Shown: one piece after another, positions 1 through 55,490 of the stretch
How positions within the stretch are numbered: position 1 is the stretch's first letter
Layout of the letters: every line of letters starts with the position of its first letter
Source: a virus
Lineage: Duplodnaviria > Heunggongvirae > Uroviricota > Caudoviricetes
Length of the DNA stretch: 55,490 bases
Virus record (IMG/VR): IMGVR_UViG_2872185964_000005
Direction: 5' to 3' (one strand)
Program-made: the position numbers and the translations under genes
Notes under the pieces: model-generated
Seen by the model: the letters and a program-made list of their open reading frames with translations, nothing else
The model's database searches: none
Told to the model about the DNA's origin: nothing

Positions 1-653
1 ATGGGACGCTGGCTTGCTGGCAGGCTCATGAAAGAGCTGGGGCTGGTCAGCTGTCAGCAGCCGACTCACCGGTATAAACGTGGTGGTCATGAACATGTTG
101 CTATCCCTAACTACCTTGAAAGGCAGTTCGCCGTGACCGAGCCAAATCAGGTGTGGTGCGGTGATGTGACCTGTATCTGGACGGGTAAGCGCTGGGCGTA
201 CCTCGCCGTTGTTCTCGACCTGTTCGCAAGAAAACCAGTGGGCTGGGCCATGTCGTTCTCGCCGGACAGCAGGCTCACCATGAAAGCGCTGGAAATGGCA
301 TGGGAAACCCGTGGTAAGCCCGGCGGGGTGATGTTCCACAGCGATCAGGGCAGTCATTATACGAGCAGGCAGTTCCGGCAGTTATTGTGGCGATACCAGA
401 TCAGACAGAGTATGAGCCGGCGCGGAAACTGCTGGGATAACAGCCCAATGGAACGCTTCTTCAGGAGTCTGAAGAACGAATGGATGCCGGTGGTGGGTTA
501 CGTAAGCTTCAGCGAGGCAGCTCACGCCATAACGGACTATATCGTTGGATATTACAGCGCACTAAGACCGCACGAATATAACGGTGGGTTACCCCAAACG
601 AATCGGAAAATCGATACTGGAAAAACTCTAACTCGGTGGCCAGTTTTTGTTGA
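1..653 (+). CDS. IS911 OrfB transposase, partial (DDE integrase domain)
   Basis: ORF 1-810 is near-identical to orfB of the full copy (50678-51517) up to the IS end; the rest is read-through into phage DNA. Confidence 0.8.
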
Positions 654-661
654 CCACTTCA
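1..661 (+). mobile_element. IS911 3' portion (IS3 family), cut by the window start; right inverted repeat tip at 661
   Basis: orfB-type translation matches the full IS911 copy at 50670-51918; terminal ttgttgaccacttca at 647-661; one C-run length difference versus the full copy. Confidence 0.85.
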
Positions 662-2410
662 CTTTTGCGCTGATTGCCGCCTGCTTCGCGCTCTGCTGCT
701 GTTCAAACCGCGCCGCCTGCTGTGCCAGCTCATTCAGCCGCTTCTGGTGTTCAATCTTGTCTCCCAGCTCAGCCAGCTGGCGTTTGTACTCCAGCGTCTC
801 TTTCTCATGAGCCAGCAGGGATTTTTCCTGCTCAGATAACTGCCGTTTCGTGGCGGCCTCTTTCAGGACCACATACTGATTTTCCGCTTCCCATAAATCC
901 CGGCGCTGCTGGCTGATTTTCTCATTCACACCGCTGTGTTTTTCCAGCGTCCTGAGCTCGGTTTCAAGCGCCAGCATGGCTGCATGCGCCCGGTCTTCCT
1001 GGCGCTCACCGGCAGACACCTTCACACCGGACGGCTTTTTCAGCGTCTATTCATAATCCTTTTTTGCCGACGCCATCAGCGTGTTGCAATCCGCCTGCAG
1101 GATTTTTCCGTCTTTCAGGGCCTTATTCAGCTCTTTCTGACGGGCGGTATATTTATCCAGCGGCGTCTGCAGGCGCTCATACGCCTTCTGCGCCTCTCCG
1201 GTATACTTCAGCTGTGACGCCTCACGCTCAGCCCGGTCCCTTGCCGCCAGTTCACCGGCTTTTTCCATATCCGACTGCAGCGTGGCCGCTGCCAGACCCA
1301 GACGGGCATTTTCCCGGTCATCCCATGCCCCCTGAAGGTTCGCACGAAAAGAGGAGGTCTTTCCCCGGCGCTGGCTCCGGCTCTGGTACCACTGCCATTT
1401 TTTATCCGCCTCATCAAATGCCTTCTGCGCACTGGCGAGCATATCCGCTGAGGATTCAGGACGACCGATATCCAGAATGGCATCCCACATCGATTTGAAT
1501 GCCTTCCCTGTTTTATCCGCCCAGGTCTCCAGTGTTCCCATGTTTTCTTTCAGGCGACGGGTCTGCTCATCAAAGCCTTTCGTGGCGATATCGTTCGCCG
1601 CCTGCAATGCCCCGGCCTCGTCTCCGGAACGCTGCAGCTGTGCAACATACGCAATCTGCTCTGCCGTCACGTTACGGAACTGGCGCGCCATCGCCATCAG
1701 TCCCGACGTCGGGTCAGTGGTCAGCTTCCCGAAGGCTTCAGCGACTTTATCCACCTCCACACCGGATGCAGACGCAAAACGCGCGACACTCTGGTTGATG
1801 GCATCAAACTGTTCACCACCACGCACACCGGCATTCACCAGGGCTGCCAGTGACTCTTTCGCCTGGTTAAACGTCAGCCCTGCTGCCTGCCCGGCTCTTG
1901 AGAGAGTCAGCATACGATCGGCAGTCAGTCCGGACTGATTACCGGAAAGAACCAGGGTTTTATTAAACGCTGAAAGCGTGGAATCTCCCTGGTACCAGGC
2001 GTACACCAGCGCACCTGTCGCCACCGCCAGCGAGGTGACCCCGACCATCGGCAGGGTGATCGCACCGGCAAGCCCCTGAACATGGGGATCATCCCGCCGA
2101 AGGAGTCCTTCACCTGACCGCCCTGTTGCAGCAGGATCAGCCAGGGATTCTGACCACCTGCAAGCTGCGTGGCGATATCCGTAAACTGTGCGGGCAGGGT
2201 TCGCATGGCCGCTTTATACTGCCCGACGGAAATCCCGGCTTTTTGTGCAGCCAGCGCCTGGCGGCTCAGGCCCTGTTCAACAGCACTGGCGGTTTTTCTG
2301 GCGTCGGTATCCAGACCTGAAAAATGACGCCTTACCCGGCTCATCTGCTCATCGAAACGGACAGCATCCAGACTCAGGTCAATAACAAGATCACCAACCG
2401 GCTGGGACAT
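662..2410 (-). pseudogene. H: Tail tape measure protein gpH, N-terminal about 580 codons only; 3' end removed by IS911, in-frame TAG at 1047-1049, apparent frameshift near 2060-2090
   Basis: ORFs 1925-2410, 1047-2048 and 552-1025 together match lambda gpH colinearly; the frame change is at a gg dinucleotide. Confidence 0.85.
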
Positions 2411-2854
2411 ATCTCACACCTCCCGGAATCCCCGCTGAAGCCATCATTAATGCGGCATCATCCACCATGACATCCGCCACATCCGCAGACGATAAAATAT
2501 CGCGCCCTCCGTCCCCACCGAACCGGACGCCTCCGGCAAGTCCTGCCGCTTTCTGCATCAGCATTTTGTCCTCATCCGGCCTCTCCACCTGCTCTTCCTC
2601 ATGCCGGGGACAAGCAGACTGAAATCAGAGGGATGCATATCCGGATCGCAAAAAAACAGGCTGAGTACAGCGTACGTCAGCCCGGAAAAATGCATATCCA
2701 GCTGGGTATCCTGAAAATAATGCGTGCGGTAAAAACGGTGCCAGTCGGCATATTCGGTGGATGTCATCCCGGCAAGCATGGCGCGCCAGTCGAGTCTCCC
2801 CATCTCACGCGCCAGTCTGAGGGCAAAGTTCAGCTCGCCGTCGAAGACTTTCCC
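2391..2854 (-). CDS. T: gpT portion of the G-T fusion, reached by programmed -1 frameshift; carries one additional apparent frameshift near 2590
   Basis: ORFs 2558-2803 and 2391-2588 match lambda GT C-terminal sequence (WRAMLAGM..., LMQKAAGLAGGVRFG). Confidence 0.7.
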
Positions 2855-3261
2855 GCAGAAAAATCATCATCAGTCAGCGTGTTATTTTTCGCCACTTCAG
2901 TAATATCAGTATCCGGACGAACAGCTTCGATCATCCCGGACAGGCACAACACCACGTCTTCCGCCCGGGCAATGGCATCGGCAGGCCAGGTGGTGAGCAC
3001 TTCCTGCTCTATCTTCATCACGGCCTCATTCATTGACGGTGACTGCGTTTTCTGTGGATGGTTATGCCACAGGGACATCGCCACCAGAAACGCGCCGGTT
3101 CTGACGAGATCTTCCACGCTTACCTGCAGGTTGCCGCAGGATTCTGCCTGTTCTGCACGCCGTTTCAGGAGGGCAAGATGCTCGATACGCTGCAGCGCAG
3201 ACAATTCGGAAAGCGTGACAGACACACCGTTATATTCAAATTGTTCTGTTTTCAGAAACAT
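2830..3261 (-). CDS. G: Tail assembly chaperone gpG
   Basis: 143-aa ORF MFLKTEQFEYNGVSVTLSELSALQRIEHLAL... is near-identical to lambda G. Confidence 0.9.
   Translation of the reverse strand: MFLKTEQFEYNGVSVTLSELSALQRIEHLALLKRRAEQAESCGNLQVSVEDLVRTGAFLVAMSLWHNHPQKTQSPSMNEAVMKIEQEVLTTWPADAIARAEDVVLCLSGMIEAVRPDTDITEVAKNNTLTDDDFSAGKSSTAS
2848..2854 (-). promoter_or_regulatory. GGGAAAG slippery heptamer for the G/GT -1 ribosomal frameshift
   Basis: Minus-strand GGGAAAG sits in the last codons of G (..SAGKSSTAS), the same position as in lambda. Confidence 0.7.
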
Positions 3262-54350: not shown

Positions 54351-54876
54351 CCGTAGGAATTATACAAAACTTGGCGAATTCACTCCACCAAAAACCGATG
54401 CTGGCACCGGAAGGACAATTCATCTGGTTCAACCAGCTATTGATGCTCTTAAAAGTCAGGCGGAAATGACCATGCTTGGAAAGCAACATTCTGTAGAGGT
54501 AAAGCAGAGGGAATATGGGAGAAGTACTGTGCATAAATGCACTTTTGTTTTTAGTCCTCAGGTAATAAAACAGCGGCAGTTTTCCGGACCGCACTATAAG
54601 GTTGACTCCATCAGGGAGTCATGGACAAGTATCTTAAAACGCGCAGGTCTGAGACACAGAAAATCGTACCAATCCAGGCATACTTATGCATGCTGGTCAC
54701 TTGCCGCTGGAGCTAATCCTAGTTTTATCGCAAGCCAGATGGGCCACACAAACGCACAAATGGTATTCAATGTTTACGGAGCATGGATGAAAGACAACAA
54801 TCACGAACAGATAGAACTCCTTAACAAAAGACTATCTGAAAGTGTCCCATGTATGCCCCATAAGAAAGTGGGGTAA
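54351..54876 (+). pseudogene. int: Phage integrase (tyrosine recombinase), C-terminal catalytic fragment; 5' part removed by IS1
   Basis: ..HRKSYQSRHTYACWSLAAGANPSFIASQMGHTNAQMVFNVYGAWM contains the catalytic His/Arg/Tyr region. Confidence 0.75.
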
Positions 54877-54905
54877 AATAAAAACTTGTAAAATCAGTTA
54901 GTTTA

Positions 54906-55466
54906 CCCTTAATCCCTGTCACGTTACGCGCGTGGCAGAGGCGTTACGGATTGCTGAAACCGCAACGGACAGACGGCGGTCATCGGCTGTTCAACGATGC
55001 CGATATTGACCGGATCCGCGAGATCAAACGCTGGATCGACAACGGCGTGCAGGTCAGCAAAGTTAAAATGCTGCTCAGTAATGAAAATGTTGATGTGCAG
55101 AACGGCTGGCGCGATCAGCAAGAAACATTACTGACTTACTTGCAAAGCGGCAATCTGCATAGCCTGCGAACGTGGATCAAAGAGCGCGGTCAGGATTACC
55201 CCGCCCAGACGCTCACCACGCATTTGTTTATTCCTCTGCGTCGACGGCTTCAGTGCCAACAACCGACTCTCCAGGCGCTGCTGGCGATCCTCGACGGCGT
55301 ACTGATCAACTACATCGCCATCTGTCTGGCTTCGGCACGTAAAAAACAGGGTAAAGATGCGCTGGTGGTTGGCTGGAATATTCACGATACCACCCGTCTG
55401 TGGCTGGAGGGCTGGATTGCCAGTCAACAAGGATGGCGCATTGATGTCCTCGCCCACTCGCTCAAT
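54906..55466 (+). pseudogene. bluR: MerR-family regulator, bluR/ycgE-like, lacking its first about 25 codons (prophage junction) and cut at the 3' end by an IS66-family terminus
   Basis: ..VTLRAWQRRYGLLKPQRTDGGHRLFNDADIDRIREIKRWIDNG... MerR HTH; no in-frame start codon upstream; 3' end abuts GTAAGGCAG. Confidence 0.6.
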
Positions 55467-55490
55467 GTAAGGCAGTATGACTTTCCGTGA
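55467..55490 (+). mobile_element. Right terminus of a third IS66-family/IS110-family composite copy (continues beyond the window)
   Basis: gtaaggcagtatgactttccgtga is identical to 12527-12550 and to the reverse complement of 25147-25170. Confidence 0.75.

What the first reader, a model, noticed from the sequence alone, without database searches (positions are those of the whole stretch)
1..55490. Apparent frameshifts cluster at G/C homopolymer runs, and repeat copies differ at the same kind of site: probable assembly indel errors
Every frameshift examined in a conserved gene sits at a G or C run whose length differs by one from what the lambda-like reading frame requires: H (about 2075), U (about 4330), C (about 8450), B (about 10220 and 9060), A (about 11820), Rz (about 26620), IS66 tnpC copy Y (about 21300). 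Independent copies of IS629 (ccgccccggg versus ccgcccggg) and of the IS110-family gene (ggg versus gg, ccc versus cc) differ in the same way. This pattern fits uncorrected long-read consensus errors better than biological decay, so many genes called frameshifted here may be intact in the cell. The TAG in H (1047-1049) and the TCG-to-TAG difference in IS66 tnpB copy X are substitutions and are a separate question.
Basis: seen in the sequence. Interest (0 to 1): 0.5.

Follow-up and report, generated by a model that had tools for sequence, protein, structure and literature searches.

The report
PacBio homopolymer deletion errors, not decay
About 44 of the apparent frameshifts in this Shigella prophage and insertion-sequence region are one-base deletions that long-read sequencing introduced at short runs of G or C, so most of the "broken" genes are intact in the cell and the finding is a data-quality artefact.

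Summary
The window is Shigella chromosome CP026872.1 (GCA_002950295.1). Its accession lies within the ranges of a PacBio-only genome batch that the literature criticises for homopolymer indels.

I found 44 one-base differences from intact relatives or sister repeat copies, plus one possible site. All are deletions in the window, and 41 lie in G/C runs.

The loss rate rises steeply with true G/C run length:
- length 3: 0.8%
- length 4: 11%
- length 5: 44%
- length 6: 75%
- length 7: 100%

Only 1 of 406 A/T runs of length 4 or more is affected.

Near-identical independent draft assemblies differ from the window by 1 substitution plus 3 deletions over 5.65 kb, and by 3 substitutions plus 13 private deletions over 10.9 kb. 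Those drafts show no such indels among themselves.

One G6 run is shortened in three of four PacBio assemblies and in none of six drafts. Nine in-silico repaired proteins match proteins of other assemblies exactly.

Some lesions are genuine: the IS insertions, TCG-to-TAG in H, a +G in dnaB and a split DUF968 gene. The errors stop after position 42,788, which is unexplained.

Verdict: an artefact.

The parts
592..595 (.). C4, true C5. One-base deletion in the IS3-family orfB copy at the window start; it makes the ORF read through to position 810.
   Evidence: The sister copy at 50736-50740 has G5, i.e. C5 on the other strand.
2073..2076 (.). C4, true C5. Deletion in tape-measure gene H.
   Evidence: C5 in E. 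coli L001 and in the independent draft L005.
2606..2609 (.). G4, true G5. Deletion in tail assembly gene T.
   Evidence: G5 in L001 and L005. The repaired T matches S. boydii proteins exactly.
4347..4349 (.). G3, true G4. Deletion in tail gene U.
   Evidence: G4 in L001 and L005. The repaired U is an exact match in the collection.
7287..7291 (.). C5, true C6. Deletion in the C-terminal part of gene C (S49 peptidase / scaffold).
   Evidence: C repaired at both of its sites matches a protein found on 133 contigs exactly.
8452..8457 (.). C6, true C7. Deletion in gene C.
9052..9055 (.). C4, true C5. Deletion in portal gene B.
   Evidence: The repaired B matches EFZ8626724.1 and ACD06878.1 exactly.
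10240..10243 (.). C4, true C5. Deletion in portal gene B.
11837..11837 (.). A, true AA, next to a C4 run. Deletion in terminase gene A. This is one of three supported sites that are not in a G/C run.
   Evidence: The repaired A (642 aa) matches S. dysenteriae EFZ8626722.1 exactly.
12469..12472 (.). C4, true C5. Deletion in the Nu1 remnant.
   Evidence: Seen against E. coli L001 only.
13051..13477 (.). Three deletions in ISSso6 (IS110-family) copy X: 13051-13052 C2 (true C3), 13124-13126 G3 (true G4), 13476-13477 G2 (true G3).
   Evidence: Copy Y and outgroup L016 have the longer runs.
15303..15305 (.). G3, true G4. Deletion in IS66 tnpC copy X.
21301..21303 (.). G3, true G4. Deletion in IS66 tnpC copy Y.
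   Evidence: Copy X and L016 have the longer run.
21674..21676 (.). G3, true G4. Deletion in IS66 tnpC copy Y.
22599..22603 (.). T5, true T6. Deletion between tnpC and ISSso6 in copy Y. This is the only private A/T-run event of run length 4 or more.
   Evidence: Copy X has A6 at 13780-13785, and L016 agrees with copy X.
23774..25066 (.). Three deletions in IS629 copy B: 23774-23776 C3 (true C4, in the terminal repeat), 24995-24998 G4 (true G5), 25064-25066 G3 (true G4, in the terminal repeat).
   Evidence: IS629 copies A and C, and the IS629-like copy in draft L010, have the longer runs.
26620..26623 (.). G4, true G5. Deletion in Rz.
   Evidence: The repaired Rz matches ACD09430.1 (S. boydii CDC 3083-94) and a protein found on 289 contigs exactly.
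28611..28613 (.). C3, true C4. Deletion near the holin / DUF826 genes.
   Evidence: Seen against L023 and L029.
30702..30886 (.). Three deletions in the SASA-family esterase gene: 30702-30704 C3 (true C4), 30719-21 C3 (true C4), and a lone A missing before 30886. Together they split the gene into 102 aa and 421 aa products.
   Evidence: The protein repaired at all three sites matches S. boydii proteins of 621 and 626 aa exactly.
31773..32890 (.). Six deletions: 31773-75 C3 (true C4), 31784-86 G3 (true G4), 31904-07 G4 (true G5), 32125-27 G3 (true G4), 32695-99 C5 (true C6), 32888-90 G3 (true G4). They lie in and around the DNA methylase gene.
   Evidence: Seen against L007, L006, L008, L011 and L028.
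33858..42791 (.). Thirteen window-private deletions in early genes (Q, RusA, DUF968, dnaB, the 330-aa gene, the cI-like repressor and others). Observed runs: 33858-60 G3, 34292-93 C2, 34789-91 G3, 34802-05 C4, 35335-37 G3, 36054-56 G3, 36523-24 C2, 37602-04 G3, 37675-77 C3, 39209-13 G5, 39549-50 G2, 40177-80 G4, 42788-91 G4. Each true run is one base longer.
   Evidence: Absent from drafts L010-L015. The G6 run at 39209-13 is also shortened in PacBio siblings L006 and L007.
1047..1049 (-). A genuine nonsense codon in H (TCG to TAG).
   Evidence: Present in the independent draft L005. E. coli L001 has TCG.
36964..36966 (.). A genuine +1 G in dnaB (GG in E. coli, GGG here). It splits DnaB into 292 aa and 163 aa in the short-read drafts too.
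   Evidence: It differs from E. coli L002 but does not differ from drafts L010, L011 or L013.
15774..15776 (-). Substitution TCG to TAG in IS66 tnpB copy X.
   Evidence: Copy Y and outgroup L016 have TCG. No independent assembly of this copy was available.
34391..34397 (.). T7 run that is T6 in some relatives. The same state occurs in two short-read drafts, so it is not an error private to this assembly. The A6 run at 36169-36174 behaves the same way.
   Evidence: The state is shared with drafts L013 and L014 and with PacBio L007. It differs in L010, L011, L012 and L015.
43892..55490 (.). The part of the window with no detectable one-base indel.
   Evidence: About 9.9 kb was evaluated. 7.5 errors are expected from the per-run rates and 0 were observed (P = 5e-4).

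Best explanation
The frameshifts are consensus errors of a PacBio-only assembly, not mutations in the cell.

How it works: during consensus calling of noisy single-molecule reads, one base of a G or C homopolymer is dropped, and the chance of this rises steeply with run length. The deposited chromosome (CP026872.1) was not corrected with short reads. The dropped bases therefore remain and break about 25 otherwise intact phage and transposase reading frames into fragments.

What is shown: the events are private to this assembly, they are all deletions, they are specific to G/C runs, they depend on run length, and repairing them restores exact known proteins.

What is inferred: that this record belongs to the Kim et al. 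2018 PacBio batch, and that the local cause is poor coverage or polishing across window positions of about 590 to 42,800.

The same region also carries genuine damage: IS600, IS629, IS1, IS66 and ISSso6 insertions, TCG to TAG in H, a +G in dnaB and a split DUF968 gene. The prophage is a real remnant, but much less decayed than the sequence suggests.
For: Source of the window:
- CP026872.1 / GCA_002950295.1.
- Neighbouring accessions (CP026774-CP026786, CP026878) are attributed to Kim et al. 2018, 'generated with PacBio sequencing'.
[quoted passage not shown] Its Supplementary Table 1 lists cgMLST allele differences between PacBio and Illumina genomes of identical strains; the two rows I read gave 288 and 67.

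Independent assemblies:
- Draft L005 (GCA_014039615.1, 5651 bp) equals window 665-6312 apart from 1 SNP and exactly the deletions at 2077, 2610 and 4350.
- Draft L010 differs from window 33047-43891 by 3 substitutions, 13 private G/C deletions and 2 A/T-run variants that other drafts share.
- Drafts L011, L012 and L015 have 0 indels against L010. PacBio siblings have 0-2 private G/C deletions each. One G6 run is shortened in 3 of 4 PacBio assemblies and in 0 of 6 drafts.
- Indel-to-substitution ratio: 16:4 for the window against 0:7 among the drafts (Fisher P = 4e-4).

Error spectrum:
- 41 of 41 tallied events are deletions.
- Per-run loss for G/C runs is 0.8%, 11%, 44%, 75% and 100% at true lengths 3, 4, 5, 6 and 7.
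- For A/T runs of length 4 or more it is 1 of 406.
- The same profile is published for PacBio-only assemblies: mostly single G or C deletions in homopolymers of 4-6 (PMC8574707).

IS copies:
- 11 one-base indels against about 8 substitutions between copies.
- All seven indels in the IS66/ISSso6 pair are deletions relative to outgroup L016.

Repairs:
- After the 9 bases are restored in 662-12526, every late gene is open except for the H TAG and the ends cut by IS.
- Repaired T, U, B, A, C, Rz and SASA esterase are exact matches to proteins of other Shigella or E. coli assemblies.
Against: - I could not read Kim et al. 2018, and CP026872 itself is not named in any text I could search. Batch membership rests on the accession range and on the record being a closed Shigella chromosome of the same deposit series.
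- The sequencing technology of the draft assemblies is inferred from their fragmentation at IS boundaries. It was not read from a record.
- Error density is very uneven. There are none in about 9.9 kb evaluated at 43,892-55,490 (expected 7.5) and none in 4.1 kb of adjacent chromosome (expected 2.9). A uniform error process does not predict this.
- The density here, about 1.1 per kb, is several-fold above the 0-2 per 10.9 kb seen in sibling assemblies.
- No read-level data were available.
Confidence: 0.93

Rival explanations
1. The deletions are genuine, strain-specific mutations: recent neutral decay of a dead prophage, possibly in a mismatch-repair-deficient (mutator) lineage where homopolymer slippage is frequent.
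For: - The region is a defective prophage under no selection.
- Genuine lesions are present: the H TAG, the dnaB +G and the IS insertions.
- The 4.1 kb of adjacent core genes (potB-potA-pepT-roxA) has no indel, as selection would predict.
- Real A/T-run length polymorphisms exist in this phage family.
Against: - Only 4 substitutions accompany 16 private deletions in 16.5 kb compared with near-identical drafts. From general knowledge, even mismatch-repair mutants make several substitutions per indel.
- There are no private insertions, and A/T runs are essentially untouched (1 of 406) although they are longer and more numerous.
- 44% of G/C runs of length 5 and 75% of length 6 are hit, which would mean near-saturation at negligible divergence.
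- The same G6 run is shortened in three PacBio assemblies of different strains and in no draft.
- An equally unselected 10 kb of the same prophage has none.
- The literature reports this artefact for this batch.
Confidence: 0.04
2. The shorter runs reflect a mixed culture. An IS-bounded segment of about 43 kb is present in only a minority of cells, or in divergent subclones, so the consensus over it is built from few or mixed molecules.
For: - The error-rich stretch (592 to 42,788) lies between an IS3-family element at the window start and IS629 at 43,892.
- Error density falls to zero on both sides.
- IS-mediated deletions are common in Shigella (general knowledge).
Against: - There are no coverage data.
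- Errors are also patchy inside the stretch: only one, at its left edge (15303), in 15.3-21.0 kb.
- This is a cause of poor consensus rather than an alternative to it. The individual deletions would still be artefacts.
Confidence: 0.02
3. The window is right, and the other assemblies and reference genomes over-call the homopolymers.
For: None specific. It is listed for completeness, because a pairwise difference does not by itself say which side is wrong.
Against: - The longer runs give intact, conserved reading frames in many assemblies made with different technologies. Among them is S. boydii CDC 3083-94, which I recall (from memory, not checked) to be a Sanger-finished genome.
- Six drafts agree with each other.
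- Within the window itself, sister IS copies carry the longer run.
Confidence: 0.01

Closest known systems
Systematic single-base G/C homopolymer deletions in PacBio-only (continuous long read) bacterial assemblies, as described for ARAMIS (PMC8574707)
   Same: One-base deletions, mostly of G or C, in homopolymers 4-6 long. They create false truncated proteins and are correctable with short reads (one search compared).
   Different: Here the density is locally very high, about 1.1 per kb over about 42 kb, and drops to zero in neighbouring sequence. Runs as short as 3 are occasionally hit.
The Kim et al. 2018 set of 59 historical Shigella PacBio genomes, as assessed by Yassine et al. 2022 (PMC8795385)
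   Same: The same deposit series and organism. Yassine et al. excluded these genomes from cgMLST because homopolymer indels had not been edited with short reads.
   Different: That paper reports allele-level effects genome-wide. Here the individual sites are mapped in one prophage/IS region. Three sibling assemblies show far fewer errors in the same 10.9 kb.
Genuine pseudogenisation of Shigella prophage remnants by IS insertion and point mutation
   Same: The region does carry such lesions: H and Nu1 are cut by IS elements, H has TCG to TAG, dnaB has a +G and DUF968 is split. These are shared with independent drafts.
   Different: The 44 G/C-biased deletions are private to this assembly and are not part of that decay.
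Slipped-strand mispairing at homopolymers (contingency loci, mutator spectra)
   Same: Changes of one repeat unit in homopolymers that cause frameshifts.
   Different: Real slippage gives gains as well as losses, affects A/T runs, and typically needs longer runs. Here there are only losses, almost only in G/C runs, and runs of 3-7 are affected.

Membership tests
Long-read (PacBio) consensus homopolymer-deletion artefact | The indels are private to the assembly and absent from independent assemblies of near-identical sequence. | tested here: met
   L005 shows 3 of 3 sites longer. L010-L015 show 13 of 13 sites longer. The drafts have no such indels among themselves.
Long-read (PacBio) consensus homopolymer-deletion artefact | Strong bias towards deletion. 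| tested here: met
   44 deletions and 0 private insertions. The direction was confirmed with outgroups for the IS copies.
Long-read (PacBio) consensus homopolymer-deletion artefact | Concentration in G/C homopolymers, with a rate that rises with run length. | tested here: met
   Loss rates of 0.8%, 11%, 44%, 75% and 100% for G/C runs of length 3, 4, 5, 6 and 7. A/T runs of length 4 or more: 1 of 406 (Fisher P = 7e-17).
Long-read (PacBio) consensus homopolymer-deletion artefact | The assembly was made from PacBio reads without short-read polishing. | tested here: inconclusive
   The record was identified. The batch attribution comes from the accession range and from what papers say about neighbouring accessions. 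The primary paper is not held, and CP026872 is not named in any searchable text.
Long-read (PacBio) consensus homopolymer-deletion artefact | Accurate reads from the same DNA support the longer run. | not testable with these tools
   No read data are available.
Genuine pseudogene-forming mutation (Shigella reductive evolution) | The lesion is shared by independent assemblies of related strains. | tested here: not met
   Not met for the 44 deletions. Met for the H TAG, the dnaB +G, the DUF968 split and the IS insertion at 662-665.
Mismatch-repair mutator or slipped-strand variation | Both gains and losses occur, A/T runs are affected, and substitutions rise as well. | tested here: not met
   There are no private gains, A/T runs are spared, and 4 substitutions accompany 16 deletions.
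Programmed ribosomal frameshift sites (lambda G/GT, IS3-family orfAB) | The frame change sits at the conserved slippery site at the junction of two overlapping frames and is present in all relatives. | tested here: not met
   The T site (2606-2609) lies inside T, not at the G/T overlap near 2803-2830, and it is absent from relatives. Relatives annotate IS600 with a programmed frameshift. Those natural frameshifts are separate from these errors and should not be 'repaired'.

The most novel reading that the evidence does not exclude
The sharp confinement of the errors to the stretch between two IS elements (window positions of about 590 to 42,800) might reflect biology rather than chance. For example, this segment of about 43 kb could be carried by only a minority of cells in the sequenced culture, through IS-mediated deletion or amplification dynamics. 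Read depth, and so consensus quality, would then collapse only there. A less likely variant is that the strain has a real G/C-run-specific deletion process acting on this segment.
Probability: 0.03. Interest if true: 0.35.

Novelty: not a real feature. Interest (0 to 1): 0.08.

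Why it matters
The value is practical, not biological. This record is a closed reference genome for a Shigella serotype, and about 25 genes in this 55 kb are falsely split.

Counts of pseudogenes, estimates of prophage decay, cgMLST allele calls and IS transposase integrity calls taken from it will be wrong unless the sequence is polished.

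The analysis also shows how to separate real lesions from artefacts without reads:
- Lesions shared with independent drafts are real. Here these are the IS insertion at the H end (662-665), the TAG in H, the dnaB +G and the split DUF968 gene.
- Losses at G/C runs that are private to one assembly are artefacts.

The problem is already documented for this genome batch.

Tried and rejected
Look-ups that failed or gave little:
- Looking up the truncated C fragment and the DUF1737 fragment to find other assemblies failed. These products exist only in this record, which itself fits private errors.
Sites 7287-12469 therefore rest on E. coli DNA plus exact protein matches, not on close-relative DNA.
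- The PmrD look-up returned mostly unrelated E. coli prophages. Only short stretches were useful.
- Kim et al. 2018 could not be read.
- Supplements of three papers did not name CP026872.

Hypotheses considered and rejected:
- A second copy of the prophage in the same genome causing ambiguous read mapping and skipped polishing. Not supported: the exact-protein look-ups show a single place in CP026872.1, with no similar places hidden.
- Programmed frameshifting as an explanation for the T site. Rejected on position and on absence from relatives.
- All homopolymer variants being errors. Rejected: the T7 run at 34391-97 and the A6 run at 36169-74 have the same state in two short-read drafts, and the dnaB +G is in all drafts.

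Full report
**What the window is**

ORF listing and BLAST against complete E. coli genomes show a lambdoid prophage heavily interrupted by insertion sequences.
- Late genes from H to Nu1 lie on the minus strand at 662-12526.
- A block of IS66, ISSso6 (IS110 family), IS629 and IS600 occupies 12.6-25.1 kb.
- Lysis, Q, replication and immunity genes lie at 25.1-43.9 kb.
- Further early genes, IS629, IS1, another IS3-family element and an integrase lie at 43.9-55.5 kb.

No complete E. coli genome contains the region. An exact-protein look-up places it in CP026872.1 of GCA_002950295.1, a 4.71-Mb chromosome, at about 975,061-1,030,550. PMC12679885 lists that assembly among publicly available Shigella genomes.

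**Checking the observation: late genes**

I aligned 662-12526 to an intact E. coli prophage (98.6% identity). The alignment has nine gaps.
- All nine are one-base deletions in the window.
- Eight are in G/C runs: 2077, 2610, 4350, 7287, 8452, 9052, 10240 and 12469.
- One is an A of an AA pair, at 11837.

After the nine bases are restored, every late gene is open. The exceptions are a TAG in H and the two ends that are cut by IS elements.

**Checking the observation: early region and lysis region**

Against an E. coli relative, the early region shows eleven one-base deletions and one insertion. The lysis region shows more:
- Rz at 26620;
- 28611;
- three in the SASA esterase gene at 30702, 30719 and 30886;
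- six between 31.7 and 32.9 kb.

**Checking the observation: IS copies inside the window**

- The two IS66/ISSso6 composites (2750 nt) differ by seven one-base indels and two substitutions.
- IS629 copy B differs from the other two copies by three one-base indels, two of them inside its terminal repeats, and by no private substitution.
- The IS3-family copy at the window start lacks one C of a C5 run.

Against an outgroup, all seven IS66/ISSso6 differences are deletions: four in one copy and three in the other. The total is 44 supported deletions plus one possible site at 29186.

**Are they private to this assembly?**

This is the central test. The FI protein of the window occurs on only one other contig in the collection, a 5651-bp contig of S. 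dysenteriae assembly GCA_014039615.1.
- That contig starts at window position 665, next to the IS boundary at 662.
- It equals the window apart from one SNP and exactly the three deletions at 2077, 2610 and 4350.
- It shares the TAG in H.

For the early region, a second look-up returned six draft assemblies and three other closed chromosomes with neighbouring accessions. Over 10.86 kb, measured against draft L010:

| Assembly | Substitutions | Indels |
|---|---|---|
| Window | 3 | 13 private G/C deletions, plus 2 A/T-run variants shared with others |
| Drafts L011, L012, L015 | 2-3 | 0 |
| Drafts L013, L014 | 10-11 | only the 2 A/T-run variants |
| Closed siblings L006, L007, L008 | 2-5 | 2, 1 and 0 private G/C deletions |

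One G6 run is shortened in three of the four closed assemblies and in none of the six drafts. That pattern follows the sequencing technology, not descent.

Nine repaired proteins are exact matches to proteins of other Shigella or E. coli assemblies. They are T, U, B, A, C, two start variants of Rz and two start variants of the SASA esterase. The repaired terminase matches a protein found on a single S. dysenteriae contig. By its protein accession number that contig appears to belong to the same draft assembly as FI.

**Error spectrum**

In the 38.6 kb that could be evaluated:

| True run length | G/C runs shortened |
|---|---|
| 3 | 0.8% |
| 4 | 11% |
| 5 | 44% |
| 6 | 75% |
| 7 | 100% |

- Among A/T runs of length 4 or more, 1 of 406 is shortened (Fisher P = 7e-17).
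- All 41 events tallied are deletions (P about 1e-12).
- Against the closest drafts, the window has 16 deletions for 4 substitutions. The drafts have 0 indels for 7 substitutions among themselves (P = 4e-4).

A real mutational process would have to nearly saturate G/C runs of 5-6, leave longer A/T runs untouched, and make almost no substitutions. From general knowledge, that does not match what is known of wild-type or mismatch-repair-deficient E. coli.

**Literature**

- Accessions on either side of CP026872 (CP026774-786 and CP026878) are attributed to Kim et al. [quoted passage not shown]
- Yassine et al. [quoted passage not shown] Their supplementary table compares PacBio and Illumina genomes of identical strains; the rows I read list 288 and 67 allele differences.
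- The ARAMIS paper reports that errors in PacBio-only assemblies are mostly single G or C deletions in homopolymers of four to six.
- I could not read Kim et al. itself. The record's membership of that set is therefore an inference.

**What is genuinely broken**

- H is cut by an IS at 662 and Nu1 by the IS block at 12526-12620. The cut at the H end is seen independently: draft contig L005 ends next to that boundary.
- H has TCG to TAG at 1047-1049, also present in the draft.
- dnaB has an extra G at 36964-36966. It differs from E. coli but is shared with all the drafts, whose DnaB is likewise split into 292 and 163 aa.
- DUF968 is split into 275 and 53 aa in all the assemblies.
- IS66 tnpB copy X has TCG to TAG relative to copy Y and an outgroup.
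- The variants of 6, 15 and 21 bp are in-frame repeat-unit changes.

Real homopolymer polymorphism also exists in this phage family. The T7 run at 34391-97 and the A6 run at 36169-74 have the same state in two short-read drafts.

**What remains unexplained**

The errors are not evenly spread.
- None was found in about 9.9 kb evaluated between 43,892 and 55,490, where 7.5 were expected (P = 5e-4).
- None was found in 4.1 kb of adjacent chromosome (potB-roxA), where 2.9 were expected.
- Only one, at the left edge (15303), was found in the IS66/IS629/IS600 stretch at 15.3-21.0 kb.
- The density here is several-fold above that of the sibling assemblies.

A second genomic copy that would confuse read mapping is not supported. 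The likeliest cause is locally poor depth or polishing, which only the reads can show.

**Verdict**

The feature is an assembly artefact of a kind already documented, both in general and for this genome batch. It has practical importance for anyone using this record and little biological interest.

Noticed in passing
window 43892-55490, and the 4.1 kb of chromosome left of the window (L004:16289-20384): Error density falls from about 1.1 per kb to zero outside window positions of about 590 to 42,800. On the right, 7.5 errors were expected and 0 seen. In the potB-roxA flank, 2.9 were expected and 0 seen. The error-rich stretch lies between an IS3-family element and IS629.
   Followed up: partly
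window 12620-23766: A large near-palindrome. Two inverted IS66 (tnpA/B/C) plus ISSso6 composites flank an IS629 copy. The right-hand tnpC is additionally interrupted by IS600 at 19760-21024. The same pairing of IS66 tnpC with ISSso6 occurs in an E. coli chromosome (L016). A tnpC / IS600 / ISSso6 arrangement occurs on pINV plasmids carrying virF (L030), so the composite seems to be old and mobile as a unit.
   Followed up: partly
window 1047-1049 and 15774-15776: Both nonsense substitutions in the window are the same change, TCG to TAG (C to A on the coding strand). One is in H and is shared with an independent draft. The other is in IS66 tnpB copy X.
   Followed up: partly
window 34391-34397 and 36169-36174: Length variants at a T run (T7 here) and an A run (A6 here) have the same state in two short-read drafts and in two PacBio assemblies, although those assemblies differ in substitution distance. 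In relatives with the other T-run state, the Q antiterminator is called as 166 aa instead of 273 aa. This may be a real, recurrent slippage polymorphism.
   Followed up: partly
window 38664, 46928, 48026, 49335: In-frame length variants of 21, 6, 15 and 6 bp relative to E. coli relatives, at short tandem duplications inside early genes (ead/Ea22-like and neighbouring genes). They are not errors of the homopolymer kind.
   Followed up: no
window 1-662 with the left flank, and window 54351-55490: The left end of the prophage abuts potB-potA-pepT-roxA. The integrase end matches an E. coli prophage integrated next to mlrA/yohO. The region therefore seems to join two chromosomal neighbourhoods, as expected from IS-mediated rearrangement in Shigella.
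   Followed up: no
L006 and L007 (CP026866.1, CP026762.1), at the positions equivalent to window 39209-39213: Sibling closed assemblies carry their own private G/C-run deletions. One G6 run is shortened in three of four of them, so the same correction is needed across the batch.
   Followed up: partly
window 29182-29186: An A5 run where a 98%-identical E. coli relative has A6, in the intergenic stretch downstream of the SASA esterase gene. No close relative was available, so it is unclear whether this is an error or a real difference.
   Followed up: no
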